From a virus (taxonomy: Duplodnaviria > Caudoviricetes), in IMG/VR virus record IMGVR_UViG_3300005336_000003, positions 237-64,236 of that record: 64,000 nucleotides of DNA. One strand, given 5' to 3'. Shown in pieces: positions 1,986 through 57,352 of the stretch; positions within the stretch are counted from its first letter, which is position 1; every line of letters begins with the position of its first letter. The notes under the pieces are model-generated. The model saw nothing but the letters and a program-made list of their open reading frames with translations, had not been told where the DNA came from and did no database searches. The position numbers and the translations under genes are program-made.

Positions 1986-2250
1986 CCACTCTCCCGAAGC
2001 CAACGAGAAGCGGGCAGCCATTCTTCGGCTGCTCGCCGATCGTGGCTGGGTATCGCTCAGCCAGTTCGCGTTCCTGGTAGGATCCGCCTATCCGACAGTC
2101 TTGCGGATGCGAGATGCCGGTCAAATCCAAACCCACAGGGTAGGAGGTATCTACAGGGTCTACTTGGAAGAGTACAACAGATTTCAACGTAGTGGCAACA
2201 GGGAAAGAATAGATGACACATGTGACGAGGAGAGCCTACGTTCTTCATAG
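1942..2250 (+). CDS. Excisionase-like HTH DNA-binding protein (start uncertain)
   Basis: WVSLSQFAFLVG..YPTVLRM..AGQI.THRVGG.YRV matches the HTH_17 pattern; only GTG/TTG starts are available. Confidence 0.6.
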   Translation: MRPAVPVARALRGSNHSPEANEKRAAILRLLADRGWVSLSQFAFLVGSAYPTVLRMRDAGQIQTHRVGGIYRVYLEEYNRFQRSGNRERIDDTCDEESLRSS

Positions 2251-3016
2251 CGGGGGACTCGACAGCTCCACTGCTTTGGCAGTGGCCTGTCATCGGCTCG
2301 AGGCTGAGATCGACGTGATCTCGGTATCGGTGAATTACGGGCAACGTCATCTGGTTGAGACCGGCTATGCCAAGAAGCTCTGCGAGTGTCTCGGCATCGA
2401 GCACATGGCTGTGGACATGGCAAGGCCTCCCAAGTCGATGCTCACCAACAAGGCCGAGGCAGTGCCGAACGTCAGCTACGACGAGATCCAAGGCATGTCT
2501 CCAACCTACGTTCCCTTCCGCAATGGCCAACTGCTGAGCCGTATTGCCGGCATCGCGCAAGCCTGGGTGATGGAAGGTAAGGAGCAGATCCTCGAGAACC
2601 AGGGAGTTGGCGTTGTCGAGGAGCTGATCCGCCTGCATGGATCCTCGGCAGTTAGCCTCCTGCCTGATGGCAAGGTACAGCTGGACGAAGACCGCGAGGC
2701 AACCGTCTGGTTCGGAGCGCATGCAGAAGATGCCCACAACTGGGCGTATCCGGACTGCACTCCGGAGTTTGTCGGTGCGATGGCCAATGCCATCTACATT
2801 GGCACATACCACAAGGTGCGGCTCGTCACACCATTCATCCACTCTCTCAAGAGCGACATCGTCCGTTACGGTGACGAGCTCGCCCTGCCTTTCGAGCTGA
2901 CGTGGAGCTGCTATGTTGGAGGCGACAAGCACTGTGGGATTTGTCCAACCTGCAGGGCGCGCAAGGAAGCGTTCATCCAGGCAGCCGTCAGGGATCCGAC
3001 AGTCTACGCCGCCTGA
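2213..3016 (+). CDS. queC: 7-cyano-7-deazaguanine synthase
   Basis: SGGLDS, YGQRH, TYVPFRN, YPDC and TWSCY..HCGICPTC..R motifs. Confidence 0.95.
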   Translation: MTHVTRRAYVLHSGGLDSSTALAVACHRLEAEIDVISVSVNYGQRHLVETGYAKKLCECLGIEHMAVDMARPPKSMLTNKAEAVPNVSYDEIQGMSPTYVPFRNGQLLSRIAGIAQAWVMEGKEQILENQGVGVVEELIRLHGSSAVSLLPDGKVQLDEDREATVWFGAHAEDAHNWAYPDCTPEFVGAMANAIYIGTYHKVRLVTPFIHSLKSDIVRYGDELALPFELTWSCYVGGDKHCGICPTCRARKEAFIQAAVRDPTVYAA

Positions 3017-3057
3017 CTGTCCTCCACAACCACAACCACCATACAAGGGGACATATC

Positions 3058-3348
3058 ATGAGTGACGGGCGAGTTGACTTGGGAGACCTGGTGAGGGATC
3101 CTATCACGGGGTTCGAAGGCGTGGTCTCAAGCCGTACTGAGTTCTTGTACGGCTGTGTACGATGCGGCGTCACCTCCCAGACGTTGGACAAGGATGGCAA
3201 GGAGCAGATCCTGTCCTTCGACGAGGCAGGGCTGCAGATAGTGGAGGTAGGGAAGTTCAAGCTGAAGCCCAGCAATGTCTCAACGAGGCCGCCAGGAGGG
3301 CCGGAGAGGCGTATCGACAACCTTCCCGAAGCCCCGGCGAGGAGATAG
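3058..3348 (+). CDS. Conserved phage hypothetical protein (SH3-like beta barrel)
   Basis: LGDLVRDPITGFEGVV..R.E.LYGC pattern; ATG at 3058 after AAGGGG. Confidence 0.6.
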   Translation: MSDGRVDLGDLVRDPITGFEGVVSSRTEFLYGCVRCGVTSQTLDKDGKEQILSFDEAGLQIVEVGKFKLKPSNVSTRPPGGPERRIDNLPEAPARR

Positions 3349-3351
3349 CCG

Positions 3352-3552
3352 ATGGGGCCAGACCAGGAAGCTTTGCTGCAGTTCTTCGAGTACAGCCATC
3401 TGCCTGTCGCTCTCCAGGCCGCCTCTCAGCCGTTCCACACTCTGGCTCACCACCTAGTGGAAAGCCTGCCAAGGAATCCGGAGCGTACGACAGCACTGCG
3501 CAAACTGCTCGAGGCCAAGGATTGCGCCGTGCGCGCATCCATCTTCAAGTAG
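3352..3552 (+). CDS. Small helical phage protein, possibly related to Acb2/Tad1 hairpin proteins
   Basis: LQFFEYSHLP..LQ..S.PF..LA..LP..PERT.ALRKLLEAKDCAVRA; GGAG RBS. The functional link is tentative. Confidence 0.5.
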   Translation: MGPDQEALLQFFEYSHLPVALQAASQPFHTLAHHLVESLPRNPERTTALRKLLEAKDCAVRASIFK

Positions 3553-3576
3553 CCCCAACATCAAGTGAGGCCCAGA

Positions 3577-4155
3577 ATGCCGTTTGGAATGAGTCGGCGG
3601 ATTGAGATCGACATGGCTCACCGTGTACCGACACACGGATCGAAATGCTGGAACGTGCATGGTCACCGCTACGTGATCATCGCAGAAGCCCAGTCGCAGG
3701 CATTACAGGAGGGCGGAGAGCAGACGGATATGGTCGTCGACTTCGGTTTCCTGAAGAACGTCATGGTGGGGCAGATCTACGACTTCTGCGACCACGGCAT
3801 GTGTCTATGGATCGACGATCCTTGGCTGGATCGATTCCTCCTGCGACACACCAGTAAGGCTCGCAAGGTCTGCGAGGAGGAAGGCTGGTACTTCGAGCCT
3901 GAAGATAAGGCTCTCGCTCAGACCAAGCTCCTGGTGGTGAATTTCATCCCAACGGCTGAGCGGCTTGCCGAGTTCTGGTTTCGCCGGATGCTGGCAGGAG
4001 TGTCACAGATATCGGGAGGCAAGGCAGCCCTCTCCCAAGTGGTTGTCCAGGAGACTCCCAACGGGATCGCCTATTACCCTCCAACGATGAAAGCCGCTCC
4101 TGGATCGATGTTCACGTCGCTTATCCGGGATAATATGGGGACAACCAATGTCTGA
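3577..4155 (+). CDS. queD: 6-carboxy-5,6,7,8-tetrahydropterin synthase
   Basis: AHR..KCWNVHGHRY, VDFG, DH, PTAE and ET motifs. Confidence 0.92.
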   Translation: MPFGMSRRIEIDMAHRVPTHGSKCWNVHGHRYVIIAEAQSQALQEGGEQTDMVVDFGFLKNVMVGQIYDFCDHGMCLWIDDPWLDRFLLRHTSKARKVCEEEGWYFEPEDKALAQTKLLVVNFIPTAERLAEFWFRRMLAGVSQISGGKAALSQVVVQETPNGIAYYPPTMKAAPGSMFTSLIRDNMGTTNV

Positions 4156-4915
4156 TGACAAGCCCAATATCGGGGGCTATCGTAAGCACCCGGTGATGGA
4201 GATGTTCGGCCCCACAATCCAAGGTGAGGGGATGCTGTGCGGCCAGGTATCGCACTTCATCAGGTTCGGAGGTTGTACCTATCGATGTACCTGGTGCGAT
4301 AGCATGCATGCAGTAGATCCGGATCAGATCAAGGCGCATGCCAAGTACCTGACGGACAACCAGATCATGCAGGCAGTCCACCAGCTCAACCCCTCTCCGT
4401 GGGTCACGCTGTCCGGAGGAGATCCTTGCATCCACGAGCTGCAGGATCTGGTGGTGAGGCTCAGGCATGATGGCTTCAAGATAGCGGTTGAGACCCAAGG
4501 AGTAATGCGCCGGAGGTGGATTCAGTACTGCCAGGCTGTAACAGTATCTCCGAAGCCTCCAAGCTCAGGCATGGCTGGCAATCTCAACAGCGCAACGCTT
4601 GACTGGTACGTGGATAATCTCGAACCTATCAGGCATCTCGGAATACCCGTCCTAAGCTTCAAGGTAGTGGTATTCGATCGCGTGGATCTTGATTGGGCTT
4701 TGCTCCTCCACCAGAGGTATCCCCGAGTCAGGTTCTTCCTCTCGATCGGGACTGACCGGCCTGAAGAGGCCGAAGGTCTGATTCTCACCACACAGGGGAT
4801 CCTGGATCGCTTCAGGACTATCTCCAGTGAGGTGTTGGCCAATCAGGAGTGGCGTAATGTAACAATCCTACCCCAGATGCATGCTTTGCTCTGGGGTCAT
4901 ACTCAAGGAGTCTGA
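4148..4915 (+). CDS. queE: 7-carboxy-7-deazaguanine synthase (radical SAM)
   Basis: FGPTIQGEG, CTYRCTWCD, SGGDP, ETQG, VSPK and LPQMH motifs. Confidence 0.95.
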   Translation: MSDDKPNIGGYRKHPVMEMFGPTIQGEGMLCGQVSHFIRFGGCTYRCTWCDSMHAVDPDQIKAHAKYLTDNQIMQAVHQLNPSPWVTLSGGDPCIHELQDLVVRLRHDGFKIAVETQGVMRRRWIQYCQAVTVSPKPPSSGMAGNLNSATLDWYVDNLEPIRHLGIPVLSFKVVVFDRVDLDWALLLHQRYPRVRFFLSIGTDRPEEAEGLILTTQGILDRFRTISSEVLANQEWRNVTILPQMHALLWGHTQGV

Positions 4916-4917
4916 TC

Positions 4918-5673
4918 GTGGCAATTCGGAAGAACCGGAAGACCTCCACATCGCGCAAGGCTGGCAAGAAGGTAAGCTCTCCTCGGAAGCCCCACAAGAC
5001 CGTCGAGAACTTCGAGACCTTCGATTATGCGCCTGCCGATATGATGGGAGCAGCAGAGGAGACGGCCGGCGAAGAGATCTGGAAGGGAACTCCCGTGCAT
5101 CCCCAGCAGAGCTACCGCGAGGAGCTGATTCGGGACGCCCTGTGGGGAATATTCGGCTCAACCCTGAGCACCGAAGCCTACCAGAAGACTCCTGGGAGGT
5201 TCCTACGATACCTCGGGGAGTTCAACCGTCAATCTGACACCTCCGAAGTATTGGGAGAGCTATTCGAGGGACCGCGAGCCGAGGGGATCCACGGCTTGGT
5301 TGTCCAACGCAACATCCCTTTCCGGATGTGCTGCGAGCACCATCTGCTTCCGGCTGTAGGGAAGGCCTTCCTCGGCTACATCCCCAACACTAAGGTCGTA
5401 GGGCTGAGCAAGCTGGCTCGCCTGGTGGATGCTATCGGCACCAGCCGCCCGAGCATGCAGGAGCTGCTGTGTGAGGAGATCGTCGATACCCTCGACCGCT
5501 ATACCAATGCCAAAGGAGTGATCTGCGTCATCGACTCCGAGCACTCCTGCATGGCTTGCAGGGGAGTCAACGTTCCGGGAGTGTCAACCTCAACCTCATG
5601 CGTGCGGGGAATCTTTCGGGATGTCCCAGCAGCGCGGAGTGAGTTCTTCTCGCTCATCGGCCGGAGGGAGTAG
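4918..5673 (+). CDS. folE: GTP cyclohydrolase I
   Basis: TPGR, MCCEHHLLP, VVGLSKLAR, QE and HSCMACRGV motifs; basic N-terminal extension. Confidence 0.95.
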   Translation: MAIRKNRKTSTSRKAGKKVSSPRKPHKTVENFETFDYAPADMMGAAEETAGEEIWKGTPVHPQQSYREELIRDALWGIFGSTLSTEAYQKTPGRFLRYLGEFNRQSDTSEVLGELFEGPRAEGIHGLVVQRNIPFRMCCEHHLLPAVGKAFLGYIPNTKVVGLSKLARLVDAIGTSRPSMQELLCEEIVDTLDRYTNAKGVICVIDSEHSCMACRGVNVPGVSTSTSCVRGIFRDVPAARSEFFSLIGRRE

Positions 5674-5677
5674 CCAC

Positions 5678-6457
5678 ATGACCCAATTCGCACCTGTTGC
5701 TCCTCCCCAATTGCTACGTGCCCTGAGGGAGCAGGGCGAGCATGTGGTGGGCAGGTACCACCTCTTGCTGGCTCACGATGTAGCAGCCAAGCCCCATGAG
5801 TACAAGGAGCTGCTGCCTCCCAACAGCATGGTGATCATGGACAACAGCATCATCGAGCTGGGCTACCCTGTGACTCCGCAAGTCATGGGGACGGCTCTGA
5901 GTATCGTACCCTCCCAAGTAGTCGTACTTCCTGACGTGATCAGGAAGAAGGACGAGACTCTGGAGCTGTCCTTCAGGGGTGCCGACTTCTTCAGCAACCT
6001 GCTCAACTTCGGTACGCAGCAATTCATGGTCGTTCCTCAAGGCAACTCCCTGGAGGAACTGAAGGAATGTGCCTACGAGATGCGCTACATCGAGGGTGTA
6101 GGCTGTTGGGGAGTCGGGAGGTTCGTGACCGAGATGCTCGGCAGCCGCGCAGAGTTCGTCAAGTGGCTGTGGGAGACTCGGGAGCTGCACCTAGCAGCTC
6201 GCAAGCATGGGCCGTTCATTCACCTGCTTGGGTTCTCCGAGAATATGGAGGATGACATCGCGTGCGCCAAGCTGCCAGGCGTTCTGGGGATCGATTCGGC
6301 TGTCCCAGTACGTATGGGCCAGAACAGGCAGATGATCTCTCGGAAGCAGAAGGCACACGCACCTCGAGGCGATTGGTGGGATACCGCAGTGCCTTTCATC
6401 CATCCGGAGACGGTCGCGAATCTCAGCCTCGTGCGCAGCTGGATCCAATACGGCTAG
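5678..6457 (+). CDS. Divergent TGT/DpdA-like TIM-barrel protein (candidate preQ0 transferase)
   Basis: IMDNS..ELG, VLPDV, VVPQG, IHLLG and GIDS motifs occur in TGT-fold order; directly after folE with GGAG RBS. Confidence 0.7.
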   Translation: MTQFAPVAPPQLLRALREQGEHVVGRYHLLLAHDVAAKPHEYKELLPPNSMVIMDNSIIELGYPVTPQVMGTALSIVPSQVVVLPDVIRKKDETLELSFRGADFFSNLLNFGTQQFMVVPQGNSLEELKECAYEMRYIEGVGCWGVGRFVTEMLGSRAEFVKWLWETRELHLAARKHGPFIHLLGFSENMEDDIACAKLPGVLGIDSAVPVRMGQNRQMISRKQKAHAPRGDWWDTAVPFIHPETVANLSLVRSWIQYG

Positions 6458-6517
6458 GCACAACACACGCGACTGGATCCAATCCAAGTGCTTGCGCACT
6501 AGTTCGGAGGCCCGCTA

Positions 6518-6802
6518 ATGTCGACTCCTGATACCGAAGAAGCCATCCTAAGGGAGATAGAGTTCCTGGATGTAACATTCCCGGAATACATCGTCGCCGA
6601 GCATGGCAACTTCGTGTATCAGGACTACGACGGCTATTTTGAGATGCTGCCTGCCTGGCGAGCTGCCAGGCTAGCCGAGCTGAAGGAACAACTCGTATGG
6701 CTCAGAACCCGCCCAGTGTCTACCGAAGTACCTTCATCAGCCGATGGGCTCACAACGACCGGGTCATCATCGACGGAGACCCCTCCATCAAAGGAACCGT
6801 AA
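6518..6802 (+). CDS. Hypothetical protein
   Basis: ORF with GGAGG RBS, in operon direction. Confidence 0.5.
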   Translation: MSTPDTEEAILREIEFLDVTFPEYIVAEHGNFVYQDYDGYFEMLPAWRAARLAELKEQLVWLRTRPVSTEVPSSADGLTTTGSSSTETPPSKEP

Positions 6803-6915
6803 CAGGCTTCCGTTGGCACTCTGACGGAGCCCACGAGGTGGAGGTATCCTGGATGCACAACGGAACATCCTATGCTGTTTGGTTTGCCGATAGCCGGCTG
6901 GCGGAGGCTACCTGA
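6697..6915 (+). CDS. Small SH3-like hypothetical protein
   Basis: DRVIIDGD.SIKGTVTG..EVSWMHNG..WF..RL; AAGGA RBS; overlaps the previous ORF by 106 bp. Confidence 0.55.
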   Translation: MAQNPPSVYRSTFISRWAHNDRVIIDGDPSIKGTVTGFRWHSDGAHEVEVSWMHNGTSYAVWFADSRLAEAT

Positions 6916-7121
6916 TGATTGCAGCGATCAGGAGACTCGTCAGGACGTCTTACGGGAGCCACGAACTAGCGCGCGGCGCTTCTGACAGGGTTTCCGCGAG
7001 ATCTGAGCCTCCCGACGTTACCTGCAAGCCCGCAGGGCCGGTGATCTACACGGCTACAAGTGGGGCCGATGTGTTCCCAGCGTTCCTGAAGCGACGCGGC
7101 AGTACTAAGCAGGAGGATCCA

Positions 7122-7361
7122 ATGACCATGGTAGTGGAGTCAGCATCTTTCAAGCGTGACGGGGCTTGGCGCGAGCTGACGTTCATGTACACGAACTACA
7201 AGATGGAGACCGAGCGTCGGCATGTCCTGCCGATGCGTGTCTGGTACGGTAGCTCAGCCTACCATCAAGGTGAGCAGTGGTTCCTGAATGCTCTGGACCT
7301 GGACAAGAACGAGTACCGCAATTTTGCCATGCGTGACATGAAGGACGTAGCCACCCGATGA
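7122..7361 (+). CDS. Stand-alone WYL-domain protein
   Basis: FMYTNYK.E..RR.V.P..VWYG..YH..EQWFL.ALDLDK..YRNFAM; AGGAGG RBS before ATG 7122. An alternative in-frame ATG lies at 6915. Confidence 0.75.
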   Translation: MTMVVESASFKRDGAWRELTFMYTNYKMETERRHVLPMRVWYGSSAYHQGEQWFLNALDLDKNEYRNFAMRDMKDVATR

Positions 7362-10030
7362 AGCAATCCGGGCCGGCTCAGAAATATGAGAGCTGTCTCC
7401 TACCGTGTGAGAACTGCCCATATGGTGGTCCGAAGGTAGGATCAAGAGGAAACCCTAAGGCCAGGGTTGTTTTTGTAGGGGAAGCTCCTGGTACTCAGGA
7501 GATGGTGCACAAGACACCTCTGACGGGCCCATCAGGAGAGGTGTTCTGGAGAACCCTCCCGCTTGCAGTCCAGCTACTGGAGTGGGGTATCGACACCTCA
7601 GATGACATACTGATCCTGAACGCTTGCCAATGCTTACCGCCACGTTCAAAAGACGCCCAGAAGAATATGGCGGCAGTGACAAAAGGAGCGGCTGCATGCC
7701 AATCACGATTGCTTGGGCAGGTTATGGAGCACCCCCGAGACCTGATAGTGGCAATGGGGAACCACGCATTACGTTCACTGACTGGGAACTCTGGCTACAA
7801 GATCACCCAGATTCGGGGACAACTTTTGCCATCTTCGATGGCTCGTATCGGCTTGTTGCCTGTCTTACATCCTGCAGCGCTGTTACGTGGAACAGGGAAT
7901 TATCGGCAGTTCCGGGAGGACATCGCATACTGCTTCGACCTCCTGAACGGAATACCGCCGAAGAAGCCTGTGGTTCCTCGGTGGTTGGTTCTACGTAACG
8001 GATTCCAAGTAAGGCAGCTCGCTAAAGCGTTGAAATCTAAACCGTTTATCGCGTGCGATACGGAGACTGGGGGTTTCAATCAGCTGACCGATGAGGTCCT
8101 GGCGGTTGGGATTTGCGCGGACGCGGACCTTGTTTACATCATCCCTGAGCGGTTGGTGCCTCTCCTGAAGGCTCTATTTGAGGAAGCCGAGGGTAGGTTC
8201 ATCTGGCACAACGGCAAGTTTGATATGCGGTTCATGAAGCGGGAGCTTGGTGAGATAGCCCGCTGCGATGAAGATACCATGCTCCTGTCCTACGCTCTGG
8301 ATGAACAGGGAGGGATTCACGATCTGGAGCAGGTAGGGAACGACCTCATCGGAGCGCCCGACTACAAGCATATGCTCAAACCCTACCTGCCAAACAAGAA
8401 GACCTCTTACCGAGTTATTCCTAAGCCTATTCTATATCGTTACCTGGCTCTCGATACGAGCAATACCAGGCAGGTATTCGACATCCTCAGGGCGAGAGTT
8501 TCCGCTGATCCAAACCTGGAAAAGCTCTACACCAAAGTCCTGATGAAGGCATCTGAGTTCCTGTACAGAGTCGAGACCCAAGGTATTGCCGTATGCCCCA
8601 ACAGGGTGGAAAACCAATCCAAGAGGCTGCAGGGAGAGATCGATGATGCCTATGCAAGGCTGCAAGCTGTGGCTAAGCAGGCCGGATACGTAGGGGAGCT
8701 TAACCCGAATAGTCCCAGGCAGCTAGCTGTAGTCCTGTTTGACCTACTCAAGCTGAAGCCGAAGAGGCCAGGCAATCGCTCGACTGCTAAGGCAGTCCTA
8801 CTTGAGCTCCCTGCGCATCCAGTTATCAAAGGGTTGCAGGACTACCGGAAGGCCAAGAAGGCCAAGAGTACCTATGTAGACTCCCTAGTGCGCAACGTCA
8901 ACATTGATGGAAGAGTCCATGCCACATACCTCATTCACGGGACCCGCAGTGGGCGGCTTTCTTCTCGTGGACCAAACATGCAAAACGTACCGCGCGGGCC
9001 TGCTATCCGCAGTATGTACATGGCCTCAACTGCTCACGTATTCATTAAGGCAGACCTCAATCAGGCTGAATTGCGGTCACTTGCTGTACTCTCGGGAGAC
9101 GAGTACCTGCTGGGAGTGTATGCGCCAGGCAGTAAGAGAAAGCTTCACCATGAGACTGCTGAAGAGTTCTTCCCCGGCTGGACTGCGCGCGGCAGGGATA
9201 AGAATCCTGAAGGCCTAGAGCAGCTGATGAGGGCCAAGGCTGTGAACTTTGGGATTGTGTACGGGAGAACCGCCCCGTCGATTGCCGAGGAGTTCAAGAT
9301 CAGTGTAGGGGAAGCCCAGAAGTTCATCGACAAGTGGGCTAAGCGTAGTCCGAAGGCTTGGGAGTTTATCGGCAAATGCCGAGCTGCACCTTTGAAGGGC
9401 CAGAACTTGGTGACGGTATTCGGCCGCAAGAAGCGGCACTGGATAGTCACGCAAGAGAACCTGATGGGTCTGCAGAACGAGGCTTCCAACTTCCCGCATC
9501 AGTCCATCGCACACGATATCTGCCTACTAGGAGGAGCAAAGGCAGCTCCTATCCTGAGGCCGTTTGGAATCAATCCGGTTAATGAGGTACACGATGAGGT
9601 AATGTTCGAATGCCCAGATATCCCAGAGGTGATAGCCTGGGCTAAGCATGTGATCGTCACCTGTCTAGAGTCGATAGCCCCTGAGTGGGGTCTGACTAAG
9701 ATACCGTTCATAGCCGAAGCCGACGTTGGCCGTAGGTGGTCTATATACAGGAATCCAAGGGAGTTCAGGTATGAATACCAGCCCAGCAATCCAGAAGAGT
9801 GGTACATCCCCAATGAAGCCGTCCTTAGGGCTCTTGCCTCTAGGGATGCGCACGGAGATGTACTGGAAGGTCAGCTCGGGGTGGAGAAACCCGCGCCTAC
9901 CTGGAGTGCCTCTGAGTTGGGCTCTGACGACGATGAGGACGATTCAGACTGGACTTCCGACGACGGCTCGACTGTCTGGGGCTTTGCTCCAACTACAGAC
10001 CGAGATGATCTCTGGCCCGAAGCAACCTAA
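7358..10030 (+). CDS. Family A DNA polymerase with N-terminal family-4 uracil-DNA-glycosylase-like domain and 3'-5' exonuclease
   Basis: UDG: CENC, VFVGEAPG, CLPP, HPAA. Exonuclease: DTET, HNGKFD, YLALD. Polymerase motifs: DLNQAELR, RAKAVNFGIVYG, VHDE. Acidic C-terminal tail. Confidence 0.95.
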   Translation: MKQSGPAQKYESCLLPCENCPYGGPKVGSRGNPKARVVFVGEAPGTQEMVHKTPLTGPSGEVFWRTLPLAVQLLEWGIDTSDDILILNACQCLPPRSKDAQKNMAAVTKGAAACQSRLLGQVMEHPRDLIVAMGNHALRSLTGNSGYKITQIRGQLLPSSMARIGLLPVLHPAALLRGTGNYRQFREDIAYCFDLLNGIPPKKPVVPRWLVLRNGFQVRQLAKALKSKPFIACDTETGGFNQLTDEVLAVGICADADLVYIIPERLVPLLKALFEEAEGRFIWHNGKFDMRFMKRELGEIARCDEDTMLLSYALDEQGGIHDLEQVGNDLIGAPDYKHMLKPYLPNKKTSYRVIPKPILYRYLALDTSNTRQVFDILRARVSADPNLEKLYTKVLMKASEFLYRVETQGIAVCPNRVENQSKRLQGEIDDAYARLQAVAKQAGYVGELNPNSPRQLAVVLFDLLKLKPKRPGNRSTAKAVLLELPAHPVIKGLQDYRKAKKAKSTYVDSLVRNVNIDGRVHATYLIHGTRSGRLSSRGPNMQNVPRGPAIRSMYMASTAHVFIKADLNQAELRSLAVLSGDEYLLGVYAPGSKRKLHHETAEEFFPGWTARGRDKNPEGLEQLMRAKAVNFGIVYGRTAPSIAEEFKISVGEAQKFIDKWAKRSPKAWEFIGKCRAAPLKGQNLVTVFGRKKRHWIVTQENLMGLQNEASNFPHQSIAHDICLLGGAKAAPILRPFGINPVNEVHDEVMFECPDIPEVIAWAKHVIVTCLESIAPEWGLTKIPFIAEADVGRRWSIYRNPREFRYEYQPSNPEEWYIPNEAVLRALASRDAHGDVLEGQLGVEKPAPTWSASELGSDDDEDDSDWTSDDGSTVWGFAPTTDRDDLWPEAT

Positions 10031-10047
10031 TCTGAAAGGAATCTACG

Positions 10048-10338
10048 ATGTCAAGTGACTCTTCACTGGCAAGCCTGAAGAACATCATGCCTGTCAAGGA
10101 TCTGCCCGAGCGTAGCTGCGGCAGGTGCATATACGCCCAGGCAGTAGCCCAGATTGGCGGCCAGGTTGACTTCTCCGTCAGGGAGTGTCACGGTGACGTT
10201 CCGAAGGTCCAGTACTTCCTCATCCCGCCGAAGAAGCAAGGAGAGACGCCAGGAATCATGGAGCATTCTGGCTGGCCGAAGGTGGAATCCAAAGCTCCTG
10301 CATGTCGACACTTCAGCACCCGAAAGGACTCCGAATAA
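10048..10338 (+). CDS. Cys-rich (probable Zn-binding) hypothetical protein
   Basis: CGRC...C.G..P...WP.V....C.HF; AAGGA RBS. Confidence 0.55.
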   Translation: MSSDSSLASLKNIMPVKDLPERSCGRCIYAQAVAQIGGQVDFSVRECHGDVPKVQYFLIPPKKQGETPGIMEHSGWPKVESKAPACRHFSTRKDSE

Positions 10339-10805
10339 TGGCTCGGTATACCTCCTCCTCAATGACCGCCCTCGAGGCTCGTGAGTATCTGGCGTCCTAT
10401 ACTTTCACCCACCACATATCCGCTGCTGCTATCCGGATTGACGAGTTCTGCCGCATGAGCCATGGGCTATCAGCGGCTCCCGGCTGGTGGTCCGATCTGG
10501 ACCACTTCAAGGCCACAGGAGAGATCGTCCCTTCGAACCGCAACTGCGGTGAGCTGATCGCTCTGATCCACAGCGAGATCAGCGAGGCGCTGGAAGGCAA
10601 TCGTACTGAGGCTCCCAGTACCAAAATCCCAGGCTTCACCAACGAGGAGGAGGAGCTGGCCGACGCTCTGCATCGGATCTTCGATTATGCCGGCGCCAAG
10701 GGACTGCGTCTGGGCGAGGCCTATGAGGCAAAGGCCCGCTACAACATGACCCGGGAGGATCACAAGCTGGAGAACCGGGCAGCAAAGGGAGGGAAGCAGA
10801 TATGA
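10338..10805 (+). CDS. MazG-like all-alpha NTP pyrophosphohydrolase
   Basis: LIHSEISEALEG..EEEELADALHRIFDY..KARYN; TAATG coupling to the upstream gene. Confidence 0.8.
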   Translation: MARYTSSSMTALEAREYLASYTFTHHISAAAIRIDEFCRMSHGLSAAPGWWSDLDHFKATGEIVPSNRNCGELIALIHSEISEALEGNRTEAPSTKIPGFTNEEEELADALHRIFDYAGAKGLRLGEAYEAKARYNMTREDHKLENRAAKGGKQI

Positions 10806-11182
10806 ACGAGCCGTTCTCGGCTGTCTCCATGTCCATGCATACCCCAGCGAACTACGGCTCGAAGGAGAACCCTGGGAAGTTCTGCTGCGAAGAGTCTGCC
10901 CTGCCTGGAGAGCCGAAGTTCTGCTTGTTGGGGCGAGACCCTAAGGCTCCGGAGAAGGTCAAGCTGTGGGCGTATGAACGTCTTGAAGAGGTCTCTCGGG
11001 GGACTCGGCCTCTGCTTGATCTCGAACAGGTTGTCGAGGCTCTGAAGATTGCAGATGCCATGGCTATCTGGCTCACCCTCAACCGCAATCCCGGGGCGGT
11101 TCCTACCTGGCGTCTCCAGAAGACTGCTCGCGCGCAAGCTGCGGTAGAGGCTGAGCCTCTGCAGGTGATCGAGGAGAGGTGA
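10802..11182 (+). CDS. Conserved phage hypothetical protein
   Basis: EP.F.LLGRD..AP..V..WA..EA..IA.AM..W pattern; ATGA overlap. Confidence 0.6.
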   Translation: MNEPFSAVSMSMHTPANYGSKENPGKFCCEESALPGEPKFCLLGRDPKAPEKVKLWAYERLEEVSRGTRPLLDLEQVVEALKIADAMAIWLTLNRNPGAVPTWRLQKTARAQAAVEAEPLQVIEER

Positions 11183-11191
11183 GCTCCGGGT

Positions 11192-51335: not shown

Positions 51336-53915
51336 ATGAGTCATGCTGTGAGTGGACCTGGTACTCCCCAAAACAGGGTACTAGTGCCGGACGAGATCCT
51401 GAACGACCTGAAGAAGTCCGGACTAGTACCTTCCGACATGAAGATCCGCCAGTTAGGGCCTCAGGAGAGGGCTACCACTGGATGCGGCGTAGCTACTCGA
51501 GGGTATGTAATCCCGTACTTCGAGATGGACGGGCTGATGCTTCCCTTCTATCGGGTCAAGGTATTGAACCCGGACGAGGAAGTAGGAGCGAAGTACAAGC
51601 AGCCCAGATCAACTCCCAACCATATCTACTTCCCACCAGACCTCGAAGATGTGCTGCATACGTGGTGCAAGAAGCACCCATCAACCAAGCTCATCGTTAT
51701 TACCGAGGGTGAGAAGAAGGCTGCCTGTGCAGTCAAGATGGGTATACCCTGCATAGCTTTGGGAGGTGTCGACAGCTGGAGATCCAAGACTATCATCCTA
51801 CCCAAGGAATCGGAGCTCACAGCTACCAAGAAGTCCATCAGAGCAAAGCTGCCTTCGACCGATGTGACCATTCCTGAGATGCAGATGCTTGCACAGGGAT
51901 TTGGATCCTTGATCGACAAGGTCCTACAGCACGGGCTCACGCCGATCATCATCTACGACTCTGACCGGAATGGAACTCTGAAGTCGGAGGTACAGCGAGC
52001 GGCAACCATGCTTGCGTATGAGTTCAGGTACCTAGGCATCAAGACTAGCCAGGTCAAGCAAGTAATCCTCCCTGACATATACACCCTCCGAGATCAGCCT
52101 GACGGAGACCCGAGCAACTATCCCAAGACAGGTCTCGACGACTTCCTGATGGCCCGAGGAGCTGCTCCGCTCATCGACATGCTGATAAAGGCGCACGGGG
52201 ATCCCGAAGCATTCCCTATGCATCCGAATCCTCGAGGCTTCCTGAACGTACACTTGAATGGGCTTCAGGACCGAAGAAGCCTATTGCAGATCTCCAGTGT
52301 GGTACTGAGCGAGCTGGATGCCGCAGGTATCAGGTTCCGAGAGAAGCACAGCGGCAAGCCCTACTACTTTGACCGATCAAGTCACAAGCTCATGCCTGCT
52401 CAGATCGTCAATCGTGGCGGCGAGGTAATGCATGAGACTCCCTTTGGTACGTTACTGTACCAGAAGTTCGGCTTGACTGCGGTGGACAATAAGGTCCTGC
52501 TATTCCTTGCTAGCCAGTTCACGGGTGAGGAGCCTATCAAGGAGGTAACTCCCAGACGTATCCGAACGTTGATCACGGAGAAGGAGGATCCGACAAACCC
52601 GTTTGGCTTAGCTCTGCAGATAAGTGACTCGCAGTTCCTTGCAATCTCTCCCGATCCAAAGAAACCAGTGGAGCTGTGTACCAACGGGACGAAGAGCATC
52701 CTATTTGAGCAGGATCATGTCGAACCCCTCGACGTTGACTATATGTTCGACCTGTTTGACCAGTATCGTACAGAGGCTCCTACCTTAACTCCCTGGTGGA
52801 GAGAGGTCCTTGAGGACACGAATCTGGGGAAGACCTTCCCTGACGTAGAGGGCGGTATAACTACCGTTACGGAAGAGGGAAGGAGGATGCGAGACTATGC
52901 AACCCTCCTATTCTACATCTCTCCGTTCCTGAACCGATGGAAGGGAGCTCAGATGCCAGTCGAGCTCATGATCGGCGAAGCGGGTAGTGGCAAGTCGTCC
53001 ATCTTCAACATGCGTCTACAGGTTATGACAGGGCGGCCTCATCTGAGGAACATCCCGAGTGACCTGAAGGACTGGAACGCCTCCGTCACAAACAGTGGCG
53101 GGCTCCTCGTCTTCGACAACGTCCACTTCACCAAGAGGGACCTTAAGCAGCAGATCAGTGACGAGGTCTGCCGGCTCATCACAGAGCCTGTTCCTCACGT
53201 CGAGCTGCGTAAGTACTTCACCACCAACGAGCTCGTACGGATCCCTGTTGACGTCTCGTTTGCCTTTACTGCTATCAACCAACCGTTCCAGAATGCCGAC
53301 CTCTTCCAGAGAGCCGCCATCTTCCACTTCATCAAGCTTGGGCAAGCTCCGGACGGAGACTGGGTGCTCAAGAAGATCGAGGAGAAGGGTGGCCGTGAGG
53401 CGTGGGTAGCTCATCACCTGGTCTTCCTCCACAGGTTCCTCAGGATCGCAGCACACGAGGGGCCGGGAGGATGGAATCCCGAATACAAGTCCTCCCATCG
53501 CCTGTCGCACTTTGAGCAATGCCTAGAGATCGCAGGCCGCATCCTAGGCATTAAGGCTGAATGGGCTGGAGAGGTAATCCAGAAGACTCAGGATCGGACC
53601 CTCACAGAGGCTGACTGGACGTTTGAGGCTATTACCTGCTTTGTCACGGAGATGCTCGAGAGCAATCCAGGCATCAGGTTCATGGCAAGAGACGTCTACG
53701 AGTGGGGATTAGGCCAGACGGACTTCTGCGAGAACCCTATCATGAGCAATGTGCGCAAGCTCGGGAGGTATATGGCAAACCATAACCACCAACTCATGCA
53801 GAGTCTGGGAATCATTCCAGCAGGCATAGCAGGTAATGCCATGAAGTACCGGCTGGTAATCAGTGACAAGACTAAGGAGCGTTACGGAGTTAAGATCGAT
53901 GACAAACCGGCCTGA
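51336..53915 (+). CDS. Primase-helicase (DUF3854-type TOPRIM plus P-loop NTPase)
   Basis: KY.QP, ITEGEKKA, LGGV.SW, YDSD, K.GLDDFL; Walker A GEAGSGKS; FDNV. Confidence 0.88.
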   Translation: MSHAVSGPGTPQNRVLVPDEILNDLKKSGLVPSDMKIRQLGPQERATTGCGVATRGYVIPYFEMDGLMLPFYRVKVLNPDEEVGAKYKQPRSTPNHIYFPPDLEDVLHTWCKKHPSTKLIVITEGEKKAACAVKMGIPCIALGGVDSWRSKTIILPKESELTATKKSIRAKLPSTDVTIPEMQMLAQGFGSLIDKVLQHGLTPIIIYDSDRNGTLKSEVQRAATMLAYEFRYLGIKTSQVKQVILPDIYTLRDQPDGDPSNYPKTGLDDFLMARGAAPLIDMLIKAHGDPEAFPMHPNPRGFLNVHLNGLQDRRSLLQISSVVLSELDAAGIRFREKHSGKPYYFDRSSHKLMPAQIVNRGGEVMHETPFGTLLYQKFGLTAVDNKVLLFLASQFTGEEPIKEVTPRRIRTLITEKEDPTNPFGLALQISDSQFLAISPDPKKPVELCTNGTKSILFEQDHVEPLDVDYMFDLFDQYRTEAPTLTPWWREVLEDTNLGKTFPDVEGGITTVTEEGRRMRDYATLLFYISPFLNRWKGAQMPVELMIGEAGSGKSSIFNMRLQVMTGRPHLRNIPSDLKDWNASVTNSGGLLVFDNVHFTKRDLKQQISDEVCRLITEPVPHVELRKYFTTNELVRIPVDVSFAFTAINQPFQNADLFQRAAIFHFIKLGQAPDGDWVLKKIEEKGGREAWVAHHLVFLHRFLRIAAHEGPGGWNPEYKSSHRLSHFEQCLEIAGRILGIKAEWAGEVIQKTQDRTLTEADWTFEAITCFVTEMLESNPGIRFMARDVYEWGLGQTDFCENPIMSNVRKLGRYMANHNHQLMQSLGIIPAGIAGNAMKYRLVISDKTKERYGVKIDDKPA

Positions 53916-55349: not shown

Positions 55350-55949
55350 ATGCGCAAACTGCACGGAACGTTCATCGGATTCTGCGGAGCCGGAGGGGTC
55401 GGCAAGACATCTACAGCTCTCAGCCTTTGCGAGAAGCTGGCGGACTACGAATTCCTCCCGAGCGTCTCGCGAGCAGTCTTTGCCCGGAGGGGAGTCGAGT
55501 CTGAGGAGGCCCAGCTCAATATGACCCCTCAGGAACGTTGGGAGCTACAGCGAGACATCCAGATGTCTCACCTGAACGAGTCACTCAAGCTCTCCGGGCA
55601 AAAGAGGATCGCCGACCGCACACAGATGGATCAGTTTGCCTACGCTCTCCAGTACTGCCACGAAGTCCTAACAGCTCGAGACTTGGCAGACCTGATGGAC
55701 TTTGTGGATGCCGCCATATCGCAGTACCGACTCGTCTTCTACTTCCCCCTGACGACTTTCCCCGGTCAGACGGACGGGATGCGCACCAGCTCCTTTGGAT
55801 CCCGAATGCTATTCGATCGCACCCTGAGGGGGATTATCGAGATGTTCCAGGTACCCACTATTGAGGTGCCGATCATGAACATTGGCTCTCGGTGTACGTT
55901 CATCATCGAGAACATGAGCGCTCGAGGGCTGCCATATAACAGGGCGTAA
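55350..55949 (+). CDS. P-loop nucleotide kinase-like ATPase (AAA_28)
   Basis: GAGGVGKTS, Q..IQ, DRT.MD..AY, Y.LVFYFP and DG.R motifs. Confidence 0.8.
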   Translation: MRKLHGTFIGFCGAGGVGKTSTALSLCEKLADYEFLPSVSRAVFARRGVESEEAQLNMTPQERWELQRDIQMSHLNESLKLSGQKRIADRTQMDQFAYALQYCHEVLTARDLADLMDFVDAAISQYRLVFYFPLTTFPGQTDGMRTSSFGSRMLFDRTLRGIIEMFQVPTIEVPIMNIGSRCTFIIENMSARGLPYNRA

Positions 55950-55956
55950 ATTTTTC

Positions 55957-56010
55957 TTGCGGTCGCCCTCAATTTTGACCCTTGAGGTCAATTAAGGATT
56001 GTTGTATAAT
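55957..56010 (+). promoter_or_regulatory. Boxed promoter 7
   Basis: TTGCGGTCGCCCTCAA, 9 nt, TTGAGG, 17 nt, TATAAT. Confidence 0.85.
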
Positions 56011-56060
56011 AGCATAGATTAATACCAGCGCCGTAGCAAGAGCAGGAGGCGTGTACTCAC

Positions 56061-56306
56061 ATGAGCAAGAGCAAGAGCGCTGAGTCAAGCAGCTCTACGT
56101 CCAATGATTATCTCCGATGCAGGTACTGTGACTTCAAGGTCGGCAAGTACCGAAGGCTTGCTAGCGGCCGAACCGTAAGCGGGTTCGGCCAGCTAGAGAA
56201 CCACATCGAGGACTTTCACCTCGACGAAGCAATGCGCCTTCAGGAACAGCTGGAGGAGCATGATGCATCTATCGATGAGGAGCTCAAGCGGGCGAAGGAG
56301 AGATAG
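56061..56306 (+). CDS. C2H2-like zinc-finger protein
   Basis: CRYC...L..H....H; AGGAGG RBS. Confidence 0.6.
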   Translation: MSKSKSAESSSSTSNDYLRCRYCDFKVGKYRRLASGRTVSGFGQLENHIEDFHLDEAMRLQEQLEEHDASIDEELKRAKER

Positions 56307-56308
56307 GC

Positions 56309-56671
56309 ATGAGTGTGAGTGAGCATCCTGGTAAGATAGAAGAGAGACCCCTTCTCGACGGTGATTACCTCCTATTCCTATGGGAGAACTTGCCGAGATA
56401 CGAGTGGGATAAGGCACTGCAATACTGGCCTAAGCTGGGCCACAAGATCATCGTCAAGATCCAGATGCCCATTGTGGGAAATACGGCACTGCTGTACAAC
56501 GAGGACAGCAGCTTCATGCTGGAGCTCTCCATGCGCCAGGGGAGATATCTGATGAGGGATCGACTCAAGGCCTACTTCTGGGCTACCTATACTGTGGATG
56601 CTGCCTCCAAGGAGCCTCAAGGAAAGTACGGCCTGATCATCGGGGAGATGGCGGAGGACCAGCCCTGGTAG
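56309..56671 (+). CDS. Hypothetical protein
   Basis: AAGGAG RBS. Confidence 0.6.
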   Translation: MSVSEHPGKIEERPLLDGDYLLFLWENLPRYEWDKALQYWPKLGHKIIVKIQMPIVGNTALLYNEDSSFMLELSMRQGRYLMRDRLKAYFWATYTVDAASKEPQGKYGLIIGEMAEDQPW

Positions 56672-56886
56672 AAGATCCTGATTGGCCCGAGTGCACCAGA
56701 AGAACGAGTGATAGATGCGAAGGGGATGTAAATCCTGTACGATGGTACCTAGGCTATCACTGGTGCTTAGCTTGTGCTGACGGGCCAAAGACGTACGTAT
56801 CCGTACAGATGCACAAGTCAAACGCAGTGCTTGTAACTAGCCGTGAGGAATTGAAGTATGTCGGAGTCAAGACCCCCCGAGAGTAG
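56665..56886 (+). CDS. CTG-initiated C4 zinc-finger protein (TraR/DksA-like), absent from the ORF track
   Basis: GGAGGA-6nt-CTG; translation MVEDPDWPECTRRTSDRCEGDVNPVRWYLGYHWCLACADGPKTYVSVQMHKSNAVLVTSREELKYVGVKTPRE. Confidence 0.7.
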   Translation: MVEDPDWPECTRRTSDRCEGDVNPVRWYLGYHWCLACADGPKTYVSVQMHKSNAVLVTSREELKYVGVKTPRE

Positions 56887-57352
56887 CCCGCGCGAATATC
56901 TCACCTGGGGTTACATCTCATCCCTGTGCGAGATCATCTGCGTCAAGATGTCGAGGATCCCGTTCAAGCCTATAGGTATTATTGCAGTGTCTCGTGGAGG
57001 GCTTGTACCTGCTGCGATCATTGCCAACAAACTCGGGATCAGAGACGTCCATGTATTGGCAATCCAATCGTACGAGGATATCGTCAGCAAGATCATCCTC
57101 GACAAGGTACCTAAAGCCCAGCCACTGTATCCCCTGTTTGTCCCTGATATCCCCTACAAGGGTCACCTATTCTTGGTGGTGGACGACATCTGCGATTCCG
57201 GTGCTACGCAGGCATTCATCCGCGAGACTTGGCCCATAGCCATGAGGGCATGTTTGGTCGTAAAGACTCCCCCAAGACTTGCAGGTACTCCCCACATAGC
57301 GGGAGCTTACCGGCCGCAGGGACAGTGGATAGTCTTCCCGTGGGAGGAGTAA
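56858..57352 (+). CDS. Type I phosphoribosyltransferase (Gpt/Xpt-like)
   Basis: IIAVSRGGLVPA, PRPP-binding motif LVVDDICDSGAT, WIVFPWE. Confidence 0.92.
   Translation: MSESRPPESSPREYLTWGYISSLCEIICVKMSRIPFKPIGIIAVSRGGLVPAAIIANKLGIRDVHVLAIQSYEDIVSKIILDKVPKAQPLYPLFVPDIPYKGHLFLVVDDICDSGATQAFIRETWPIAMRACLVVKTPPRLAGTPHIAGAYRPQGQWIVFPWEE

What the first reader, a model, noticed from the sequence alone, without database searches (positions are those of the whole stretch)
2213..57352. Possible pre-replicative route: preQ0 pathway plus PRTase, kinase, MazG-like pyrophosphatase and own polymerase
Besides the que genes, the phage encodes a Gpt-like phosphoribosyltransferase (56858-57352), a P-loop NMP-kinase-like protein (55350-55949), a MazG-like NTP pyrophosphohydrolase just after the polymerase (10338-10805) and its own family A polymerase. 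This parallels the logic of Z-genome phages (make the modified nucleotide, destroy the canonical one, use a selective polymerase), here applied to guanine: preQ0 -> nucleotide -> dNTP, with dGTP removal. The grouping is pure inference. These genes also occur in unmodified phages, are not adjacent, and no ribonucleotide reductase is encoded.
Basis: inference. Interest (0 to 1): 0.7.

Follow-up and report, generated by a model that had tools for sequence, protein, structure and literature searches.

The report
Deazaguanine phage with accessory guanine-salvage enzyme
This phage most likely swaps modified guanine (preQ0) into finished DNA with a DpdA3-like base-exchange enzyme, and its guanine-type phosphoribosyltransferase looks like an optional helper tied to that pathway rather than part of a nucleotide-pool route.

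Summary
All the named genes are real. They are queC, queD, queE, folE, a UDG-exo-PolA polymerase, a MazG-like pyrophosphatase, a kinase-fold AAA_28 protein and a Gpt-like PRTase. No RNR is encoded.

The proposed four-part pre-replicative route is not conserved. A 259-aa TGT-fold, DpdA3-like transglycosylase (5678-6457) lies between folE and polA. The order que genes, DpdA3-like, PolA holds in 79 of 80 related viral loci.

Among 25 long relatives:
- a PRTase occurs in 5
- the MazG-like gene occurs in 6
- the AAA_28 gene occurs in 5, which are only the closest relatives
- none of the 25 has all three

The five closest relatives lack the PRTase. In the window it sits in a variable slot.

Viral Gpt-like PRTases are strongly tied to deazaguanine clusters:
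- QueE lies within 5 kb in 51 of 80 PRTase loci
- FolE lies within 1 kb in 30 of 80
- homologues occur in the phiST-type phages that replace all G

The best reading is post-replicative DpdA3-like exchange, with the PRTase recycling released guanine into the GTP that FolE consumes. A TubE-like deazapurine nucleotide route stays possible but unlikely here.

This scan has already noted the PRTase-deazaguanine pairing on other DNA.

The parts
2213..3016 (+). queC, 7-cyano-7-deazaguanine (preQ0) synthase
   Evidence: Pfam PF06508 9e-47. TIGR00364 scores 139.6 bits, below its cut-off of 150.
3565..4155 (+). queD, 6-carboxytetrahydropterin synthase, with a CxxxHGH motif
   Evidence: Pfam PF01242 5e-22. 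The motif C-W-N-V-H-G-H is seen in the translation. The motif definition comes from Cui 2023, section 16.
4148..4915 (+). queE, 7-carboxy-7-deazaguanine synthase (radical SAM)
   Evidence: TIGR03365 scores 235 bits, over its cut-off of 206.
4918..5673 (+). folE, GTP cyclohydrolase I
   Evidence: Pfam PF01227 1e-43.
5678..6457 (+). DpdA3-like guanine transglycosylase (259 aa, TGT-fold TIM barrel)
   Evidence: There is no Pfam, PHROG or NCBIfam hit. The AF2 model has pLDDT 94.2. All top Foldseek hits are tRNA-guanine transglycosylases, E 3e-8, prob 1.0. hhalign to phiST DpdA3 gives prob 96.8%, E 3e-10. The family profile finds the phiST gene at 6e-14.
7358..10030 (+). DNA polymerase: family-4 UDG-like domain + 3'-5' exonuclease + family A polymerase
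   Evidence: Pfam PF03167, PF01612 and PF00476. The DpoZ models score 73 and 38 bits against cut-offs of 500 and 350.
10338..10805 (+). MazG-like (all-alpha) nucleotide pyrophosphohydrolase candidate; substrate unknown
   Evidence: PHROG 5658 'pyrophosphatase' 7e-39. Atlas structure neighbours are listed. ExxE and ExxD-type acidic motifs are conserved in 9 relatives. There is no Pfam hit.
55350..55949 (+). AAA_28 P-loop protein with a nucleoside/nucleotide-kinase fold; substrate unknown
   Evidence: Pfam PF13521 1.5e-13. AF2 pLDDT 89.8. Foldseek neighbours are the NadR RNK domain, thymidylate kinases and deoxynucleoside kinases.
56858..57352 (+). Gpt-like 6-oxopurine phosphoribosyltransferase, in a variable accessory slot
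   Evidence: PF00156 34.9 bits. PDB 1a98, E. coli XGPRT, 8e-15. Invariant active-site motifs in 6 phage homologues. The slot between the AAA_28 gene and the HNH gene holds other genes in 3 close relatives.

Best explanation
**Route.** The phage makes the free base preQ0 from GTP with FolE, QueD, QueE and QueC. It then puts preQ0 into its DNA by base exchange, using the DpdA3-like transglycosylase encoded between folE and polA. This happens after or alongside replication, not through the dNTP pool.

**PRTase.** The Gpt-like PRTase is an optional helper. It most likely converts free guanine plus PRPP into GMP. Each exchange event releases one guanine, and host nucleic-acid breakdown supplies more. 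Host kinases would then return GMP to GTP, the substrate of FolE. This closes a loop in which excised guanine becomes the next preQ0. It would also remove guanine that competes with preQ0 at the transglycosylase.

**Other two genes.** The kinase-fold AAA_28 protein and the MazG-like pyrophosphatase have no demonstrable tie to the pathway. They are best treated as lineage-specific nucleotide-metabolism accessories.

**Shown versus inferred.** The gene identities, folds, synteny and co-occurrence are shown. The DNA-level exchange, the PRTase substrate and the loop are inferred.
For: 1. **DpdA3-like enzyme.**
   - AF2 pLDDT 94 with a TGT fold.
   - Homology to phiST DpdA3.
   - The family has 442 members at E<=0.001.
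2. **Core module.**
   - In the 80 IMG/VR loci anchored on this family, PolA is detected in 79, FolE in 75, QueE in 72 and QueC in 63. Most misses are in short contigs.
   - 25 relatives of 44 kb or more were chosen out of the 80.
   - PF00156 PRTase is in 5 of 25, and in 3 of 13 that are at least 90% complete.
   - The MazG-like gene is in 6 of 25.
   - The AAA_28 gene is in 5 of 25, which are exactly the five closest relatives.
   - No record has all three. The five closest relatives, two of them 100% complete, have no PRTase.
4. **The PRTase is an insertion-like accessory.**
   - RuvC-like, AAA_28, variable stretch, HNH, ligase, SNF2 is syntenic in 3 relatives, with other genes in the variable stretch.
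5. **The PRTase tracks FolE.**
   - FolE lies within 1 kb, on the same strand, in 30 of 80 PRTase loci, in either order.
   - PRTase follows FolE directly in Brevundimonas phage StAshley and in G018.
   - The same holds in L052, L053 and L060, where folE has moved away from the other que genes.
6. **The PRTase occurs with different end products.**
   - QueC is present in 14 of 80 loci.
   - DpdL-like ORFs with the HRHxF motif are present in 21 of 80.
   - This fits a substrate common to all these clusters, such as guanine.
7. **6-oxopurine PRT motifs.** They are invariant in six phage homologues and align to E. coli XGPRT.
8. **Literature.** Cui et al. 2023 (PMC10516641; abstract, section 16 and discussion passages read) find a DpdA in all deazaguanine phages. 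They propose post-replicative insertion and link DpdA3 with complete replacement.
Against: - No biochemistry exists for any DpdA3. [quoted passage not shown]
- PRTases that use 7-deazaguanines exist. TubE is a CDG-specific PRTase and ToyH is its homologue (PMC6112128; passages read). A PRTase clustered with FolE, QueD and QueE is therefore also the signature of deazapurine nucleotide synthesis.
- phiST replaces 100% of its G. It carries a MazG-like gene and a P-loop ATPase inside its cluster, and elsewhere a PRTase and an RNR large subunit.
- PRTase and FolE are not consecutive enzymes under the salvage model, because Gmk and Ndk lie between them. Adjacency shows co-function only.
- In this window the PRTase is not adjacent to any que gene.
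- Sequence cannot tell guanine from preQ0 or CDG as the PRTase substrate.
Confidence: 0.55

Rival explanations
1. The PRTase converts preQ0, or its precursor CDG, plus PRPP into a 7-deazaguanine ribonucleotide, as TubE and ToyH do. The kinase-fold protein and host enzymes, including the host RNR, raise it to the dNTP. The MazG-like enzyme lowers dGTP, and the phage PolA incorporates the modified nucleotide. In this model the DpdA3-like enzyme only patches residual G, or has another role.
For: - There is biochemical precedent: TubE is a CDG-specific PRTase in a FolE/QueD/QueE cluster (PMC6112128).
- Viral Gpt-like PRTases are embedded in deazaguanine clusters.
- PRTase homologues occur in the phiST, phi13:1 and phi19:2 phages. 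Cui 2023 reports complete G replacement in phiST and the same base, dDG, in the other two.
- phiST has a MazG-like gene and a P-loop ATPase inside its cluster, and an RNR large subunit three genes after its PRTase.
- DpdA3 activity has never been shown.
- Cui 2023 cites the detection of an ADG nucleoside in CP220-infected cells.
Against: - The DpdA3-like gene is present in all 80 related loci, with PolA detected downstream in 79. PRTase is in 5 of 25 long relatives and in none of the five closest.
- No relative carries PRTase, MazG-like and AAA_28 together.
- The AAA_28 gene is absent from every PRTase-bearing relative, and lies within 10 kb of only 1 of 80 PRTase loci.
- The window encodes no RNR.
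- The window's MazG-like and kinase-fold proteins show no detectable similarity to the phiST ones.
- The polymerase is not DpoZ-like.
- The PRTase sits next to FolE, the first enzyme, rather than QueC or QueE, the last ones.
Confidence: 0.15
2. The PRTase, the kinase-fold protein and the MazG-like enzyme are unrelated general nucleotide-metabolism accessories. They serve purine salvage from degraded host nucleic acid, pool sanitation or counter-defence, with no specific tie to DNA modification in this phage.
For: - All three are sporadic among relatives.
- The PRTase lies in a variable slot next to an HNH endonuclease-like gene, far from the que genes.
- Some complete jumbo viral records carry a PRTase relative with no DpdA3-like or TGT match, and with QueD far away. 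These are G052 and G061.
- A complete provirus record, G027, has a PRTase relative and no QueD or DpdA3-like match.
Against: - For the PRTase, the link to deazaguanine genes is far above any plausible base rate. A QueE family lies within 5 kb in 51 of 80 loci. QueD/PTPS is in 33 of 50 records of 20 kb or more, most of them fragments. By contrast, QueE tblastn matches occur in 219 of 50,697 phage records, which is a lower bound.
- 7 of the 11 phage records with a PRTase match are DpdA3-type phages.
Confidence: 0.2

Closest known systems
DpdA3-type 7-deazaguanine DNA modification systems (Cellulophaga phage phiST, Flavobacterium phage immuto 2-6A, Campylobacter phage CP220; Cui et al. 2023, PMC10516641)
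   Same: - The base-synthesis genes are followed by a short (259 aa) TGT-fold protein placed just before the replicative polymerase.
- The window's family is homologous to phiST DpdA3.
- phiST also has a Gpt-like PRTase.
   Different: - Identity to phiST DpdA3 is only about 22%, and BLAST does not connect the two. tblastn finds only two Brevundimonas phages.
- The window has QueC, so preQ0 is the expected base, whereas phiST makes dDG through DpdL.
- The polymerase is PolA here and Pol III alpha in phiST.
- Neither the modification itself nor its level has been measured for this lineage.
E. coli xanthine-guanine phosphoribosyltransferase (Gpt; PDB 1a95, 1a97, 1a98, 1nul)
   Same: - It is the best solved relative, at 8e-15.
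- The SRGG loop, the acidic PRPP motif DDxxDxG and the C-terminal W-I..PW purine-stacking segment all align.
   Different: - The window protein scores below the NCBIfam equivalog cut-off, 85 against 138 bits.
- It has an insertion of about 12 residues in the middle.
- It is virus-encoded, and its family is linked to FolE and deazaguanine clusters.
TubE / ToyH, deazapurine phosphoribosyltransferases of tubercidin and toyocamycin biosynthesis (PMC6112128)
   Same: A purine-type PRTase is encoded together with FolE, QueD and QueE homologues.
   Different: - TubE builds a nucleoside antibiotic, not DNA.
- In the viruses a DpdA3-like transglycosylase usually accompanies the PRTase.
Z-genome (2-aminoadenine) phage system PurZ / DatZ / MazZ / DpoZ
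   Different: - Here the components are not co-conserved.
- The polymerase is not DpoZ.
- A base-exchange enzyme is present and universal in the lineage.

Membership tests
DpdA3 (phage DNA guanine transglycosylase subfamily) | TGT-type TIM-barrel fold | tested here: met
   AF2 pLDDT 94.2 and pTM 0.91. The 50 listed Foldseek PDB hits are all tRNA-guanine or archaeosine transglycosylases, with E from 3e-8 and prob 1.0.
DpdA3 (phage DNA guanine transglycosylase subfamily) | Sequence homology to a named DpdA3 (phiST CGPG_00065 / gp042) | tested here: met
   hhalign prob 96.8%, E 3e-10, over 203 columns. The motifs IMDNS/TLDNG, PQG, HLLGF/HFLGA and GIDS/STDS align. The HMM finds the phiST gene at 6e-14. 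That gp042 equals CGPG_00065 is my inference from gene order and length. Whether the window's family falls inside DpdA3 or is a sister group was not resolved, because the paper's member list is in supplements that are closed.
DpdA3 (phage DNA guanine transglycosylase subfamily) | Encoded with 7-deazaguanine base-synthesis genes | tested here: met
   It lies directly after folE in the window. FolE is in 75 of 80 related loci, QueE in 72 and QueC in 63.
DpdA3 (phage DNA guanine transglycosylase subfamily) | Inserts a 7-deazaguanine into DNA; high or complete replacement of G | not testable with these tools
   This needs LC-MS of virion DNA and an enzyme assay. It has not been shown for any DpdA3.
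Canonical TGT / DpdA1-DpdA2 as seen by Pfam PF01702 | Match to Pfam TGT | tested here: not met
   There is no match at E<=1 in the whole record, and none in the protein scan.
Gpt/XGPRT 6-oxopurine phosphoribosyltransferase | Type I PRTase domain with the PRPP motif | tested here: met
   PF00156 scores 34.9 bits against a cut-off of 26.3. D110, D113, G115 and R46-G47-G48 are invariant in six phage homologues.
Gpt/XGPRT 6-oxopurine phosphoribosyltransferase | NCBIfam equivalog score (NF006613) | tested here: not met
   85.1 bits against a cut-off of 138. It is a relative, not an equivalog.
Gpt/XGPRT 6-oxopurine phosphoribosyltransferase | Uses guanine, xanthine or hypoxanthine | not testable with these tools
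   The conserved Lys (K136) and the W157-I segment align with XGPRT. Their roles in 6-oxo recognition and base stacking are recalled knowledge. These residues would also fit 7-deazaguanines.
TubE/ToyH-type deazapurine PRTase | Clusters with FolE/QueD/QueE and uses CDG or preQ0 | tested here: inconclusive
   Clustering is met for the viral family but not in this window. The substrate is untestable here, and no TubE sequence was available for comparison.
MazG / all-alpha NTP pyrophosphohydrolase | Match to a curated MazG or dUTPase_2 model | tested here: inconclusive
   There is no Pfam or NCBIfam hit. PHROG 5658 'pyrophosphatase' hits at 7e-39. Atlas structure neighbours include a pyrophosphohydrolase family at TM 0.64 and dUTPase_2 at TM 0.51. 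Paired acidic motifs are conserved; reading them as the MazG metal site is recalled knowledge.
Nucleoside / nucleotide monophosphate kinases | P-loop kinase fold with a lid and substrate domain | tested here: met
   Foldseek neighbours are the NadR RNK domain (8x7f, 4e-7), thymidylate kinases and deoxyadenosine kinase. The substrate cannot be assigned. There is no NCBIfam hit.
Pre-replicative substitution system (Z-genome logic) | Components co-conserved across relatives that share the modification genes | tested here: not met
   PRTase is in 5 of 25, MazG-like in 6 of 25 and AAA_28 in 5 of 25. None has all three.
Pre-replicative substitution system (Z-genome logic) | Dedicated selective polymerase (DpoZ-type) | tested here: not met
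   NF038380 scores 73 bits against a cut-off of 500. NF038381 scores 38 bits against a cut-off of 350.

The most novel reading that the evidence does not exclude
Viral Gpt-like PRTases act like TubE/ToyH and turn CDG or preQ0 into 7-deazaguanine nucleotides. DpdA3-type phages, possibly including this one, would then replace G at least partly through the nucleotide pool. In that case complete G replacement would not be purely post-replicative, contrary to the published proposal.
Probability: 0.13. Interest if true: 0.85.

Novelty: new member of a known kind. Interest (0 to 1): 0.4.

Why it matters
Whether 7-deazaguanines enter phage DNA only by base exchange is still an inference. No DpdA3 has been assayed. 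A purine PRTase that recurs in these clusters is the one gene that could point to a nucleotide-level branch or to a guanine-recycling loop. It is not mentioned in the deazaguanine-phage papers I could search. The word 'phosphoribosyltransferase' occurs 0 times in Hutinet 2019 and Cui 2023, and no relevant paper turned up.

This window adds a useful natural comparison. Its closest relatives share the same que, DpdA3-like and PolA module but lack the PRTase. A PRTase-plus versus PRTase-minus comparison of modification level would therefore be informative. For this particular window the four-gene 'route' is mostly a coincidence of accessory genes.

Tried and rejected
- **Megablast, window 2000-11200 against phages:** no match.
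- **Sequence and profile searches of the DpdA3-like family against PDB sequences:** only chance-level hits. The fold search was needed.
- **tblastn of the DpdA3-like protein against phages:** only 2 Brevundimonas phages. It does not reach phiST; hhalign and the HMM do.
- **BLASTP and hhalign of the window's MazG-like and kinase-fold proteins against the phiST cluster's MazG (gp039), its ATPase (gp041) and a MazG-like ORF in L111:** no similarity. The recurrence of 'MazG plus kinase' in phiST is at most analogy. The hhalign templates were single sequences, so sensitivity was low.
- **PHROG scans of 20 further early-region ORFs for more nucleotide-metabolism genes:** only a nucleotidyltransferase (60570-61193) and a weak repressor hit.
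- **Search for PRTase-FolE fusions among my 160 loci:** none found. Earlier notes of this scan report such fusions elsewhere; I did not verify those.
- **NAD-salvage reading of AAA_28 plus PRTase:** rejected. The PRTase is Gpt-like, not a nicotinamide PRTase.
- **Limits of the counts:**
  - The genome search uses a loose first look and many viral records are fragments, so absences are soft.
  - The single-sequence phmmer under-detects QueD: 3 of 80, against 33 of 50 with Pfam.
  - The 42 PRTase clusters are not a phylogenetically corrected sample.
  - The base rate is a tblastn lower bound.
- **Supplements:** the supplementary tables of Cui 2023, which list the DpdA3 members, are closed. I could not see whether this lineage or the PRTase is listed there.

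Full report
**What the window is.** It covers bases 237-64236 of a 64,236-bp virus record with direct terminal repeats, so it is an essentially complete phage genome. It has no tRNA genes and a G+C content of 54-61%. Plus-strand early and replication genes occupy about 1-11,200 and 40,400-64,000. Minus-strand structural genes lie between them.

**Check of the observation.**
- QueC, QueD, QueE and FolE are supported by Pfam and NCBIfam.
- The polymerase is a UDG-like + 3'-5' exonuclease + family A fusion.
- The PRTase is a type I PRTase whose best solved relative is E. coli XGPRT, at 8e-15. The PPi loop, the PRPP motif and the C-terminal W-I..PW segment all align. It scores below the NCBIfam equivalog cut-off.
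- The 'kinase' is an AAA_28 P-loop protein. Its AF2 model has pLDDT 89.8 and matches the NadR ribosylnicotinamide-kinase domain, thymidylate kinases and deoxynucleoside kinases. The fold is confirmed but the substrate is open.
- The MazG-like protein has no Pfam or NCBIfam hit. It matches PHROG 5658 'pyrophosphatase' at 7e-39, and it has pyrophosphohydrolase and dUTPase_2 structure neighbours in the Atlas.
- No RNR large subunit, no QueF and no Pfam-type TGT is found in the record.

**The gene that decides the reading.** A 259-aa ORF (5678-6457) lies directly after folE. It has no Pfam, PHROG or NCBIfam hit.
- It has 442 homologues at E<=0.001.
- With a 36-sequence alignment, AF2 gives a confident TIM barrel with pLDDT 94.2.
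- All 50 listed Foldseek PDB hits are tRNA-guanine or archaeosine transglycosylases, with E from 3e-8 and prob 1.0.
- The family profile aligns to the 259-aa protein of Cellulophaga phage phiST at prob 96.8%, E 3e-10, with the conserved motifs in register. By gene order and length this protein corresponds to the DpdA3 of Cui et al. 2023.
- An HMM search of the phiST genome finds that gene at 6e-14.
My result agrees with that note.

**How conserved each piece is.** I anchored on the DpdA3-like family in IMG/VR and kept 80 loci with flanks of up to 10 kb.
- PolA was detected in 79 of the 80, FolE in 75, QueE in 72 and QueC in 63. The order QueC-QueD-QueE-FolE-DpdA3-like-PolA holds in most.
- I searched the whole records of the 25 loci whose contigs are 44 kb or longer:
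  - the window's PRTase matched in 4 of 25, and any PF00156 gene in 5 of 25
  - the MazG-like protein matched in 6 of 25
  - the AAA_28 protein matched in 5 of 25, exactly the five closest relatives
  - no record had all three
- None of the five closest relatives has a PRTase. Their DpdA identity to the window is 45-70%, and two of them are 100% complete.
- In three of these relatives the stretch RuvC-like, AAA_28, about 2.3 kb, HNH-like, ligase, SNF2 is syntenic with the window. The 2.3 kb holds other genes. The PRTase therefore sits in a variable slot.

The modification module of this lineage works without the PRTase. The four-gene 'route' is not a unit.

The PRTase family is tied to deazaguanine synthesis.
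- *Isolated phages.* tblastn against 50,697 phage records gives 11 matches:
  - 2 Brevundimonas phages with QueC-QueD-QueE, a DpdA3-like gene and PolA; in StAshley the genes for dNMP kinase, FolE and PRTase are adjacent
  - 5 records of Cellulophaga phages phiST, phi13:1 and phi19:2
  - 1 unannotated fecal phage without a DpdA3-like match
  - 3 fragments of 2-5 kb
- *Reported modification.* Cui 2023 reports complete replacement of G by dDG in phiST, and the same base in phi13:1 and phi19:2.
- *Metagenomic loci.* A six-sequence PRTase alignment found at least 319 IMG/VR relatives, and 80 loci were kept.
- *Whole records.* In the 50 of these 80 whose contigs are 20 kb or longer:
  - PF01242 (QueD or DpdL) occurs in 33
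  - a DpdA3-like match occurs in 16
  - Pfam TGT occurs in 0
  - most of these records are fragments
- *Flanks of all 80 loci.*
  - FolE is within 10 kb in 38, always on the same strand. The gap is 300 bp or less in 23 and 1 kb or less in 30, with FolE on either side.
  - A QueE family lies within 5 kb in 51 loci, covering 25 of 42 PRTase clusters at 60% identity.
  - FolE lies in 35 loci, DpdL-like ORFs in 21, and a MazG-like family in 13.
- *Scale.* QueE tblastn matches occur in 219 of 50,697 phage records, which is a lower bound.

**Mechanism.** The conserved core argues that preQ0 is inserted by the DpdA3-like enzyme. This is also the published view for all known deazaguanine phages (Cui 2023; abstract and discussion passages).

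For the PRTase I favour guanine salvage. Each exchange frees one guanine and each preQ0 costs one GTP, so guanine to GMP, then to GTP and FolE, closes the mass balance. It also removes a competitor of preQ0. This is inference. Three observations support it:
- the PRTase travels with FolE, even where folE has left the other que genes (L052, L053, L060, StAshley, G018)
- it occurs with both QueC-type and DpdL-type clusters
- it is accessory to DpdA3-like genes rather than an alternative to them

I stated this reading before opening the scan's notes. Earlier agents reached the same reading on other genomes.

**Why the rival is not dead.**
- TubE is a biochemically shown CDG-specific PRTase in a FolE/QueD/QueE cluster (PMC6112128; passages).
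- phiST carries a MazG-like gene, a P-loop ATPase, a PRTase and an RNR.
- These phiST genes are not detectably similar to the window's MazG-like and AAA_28 proteins.
- Sequence cannot settle the PRTase substrate.

I put the nucleotide-route reading at about 0.13-0.15 for this phage.

**Comparison and novelty.** The system is a new, divergent member of the DpdA3-type 7-deazaguanine modification systems, with preQ0 as the expected base.

The PRTase link is not mentioned in the deazaguanine-phage papers I could search. One search shows zero occurrences of 'phosphoribosyltransferase' in Hutinet 2019 and Cui 2023. Searches found no paper that makes the link. The jumbo-phage review discusses PRTases only for NAD and Ter systems. 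This scan has, however, already recorded the link several times on other DNA. In this window it is the weakest form of the pairing, because the PRTase is not adjacent.

**Verdict.**
- Observation: confirmed.
- Interpretation: partly supported. The PRTase is tied to the pathway, but the pre-replicative four-gene route is not supported.
- Interest: 0.4.

Noticed in passing
window 5678-10030; loci L002-L081: PolA is detected in 79 of 80 loci anchored on the DpdA3-like gene, downstream of it in the loci inspected. In phiST, DpdA3 lies just before Pol III alpha. This may mean that base exchange is coupled in time or place to replication.
   Followed up: partly
window 55949-57599; L169 2400-4740, L170 2130-4280, L171 2590-4690: The slot between the AAA_28 gene and the HNH-like gene is hypervariable. 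The window has two small ORFs plus the PRTase there. Relatives G002 and G003 have a 431-447-aa protein with an N-terminal Cys-rich (zinc-ribbon-like) start.
   Followed up: partly
L117 3526-3948 and 20 further PRTase loci: ORFs with the LxxxHRHxF signature that Cui 2023 gives for DpdL, the predicted CDG decarboxylase, recur within 5 kb of viral PRTases. They occur in 21 of 80 loci, covering 11 of 42 PRTase clusters.
   Followed up: no
L087 443-1057 (G013, 112.5-kb viral record): One DpdA3-like-bearing virus carries an Hpt-type (HGPRT-like, 204 aa) PRTase about 4.5 kb upstream of its DpdA3-like gene, instead of a Gpt-like one. This may be a non-orthologous replacement with the same activity.
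   Followed up: no
window 3017-3564 and 6458-7357: Extra small ORFs interrupt the otherwise compact module. Two lie between queC and queD (about 3050-3348 and 3352-3552). Three lie between the DpdA3-like gene and polA, including a WYL-domain protein at 6915-7361 (Pfam 6e-6).
   Followed up: no
window 7358-7960: The polymerase carries an N-terminal family-4 UDG-like domain (PF03167, 3e-20). UDG-PolA fusions are described for N4-like, SPO1-like and SP15-like polymerases (PMC13697223; passages). I did not examine whether this one is active.
   Followed up: no
window 60570-61193 and 51336-53915: There is a nucleotidyltransferase-like protein (PHROG 1614, 4e-17). There is also an 859-aa protein whose only Pfam match is DUF3854. 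Neither was studied further.
   Followed up: no
G052 (321.7 kb) and G061 (273.6 kb) viral records; loci L125, L140: These complete or near-complete jumbo viral records have a Gpt-like PRTase relative and a distant PTPS/QueD-like gene. They have no DpdA3-like or Pfam TGT match. Here the PRTase may serve another purpose.
   Followed up: no
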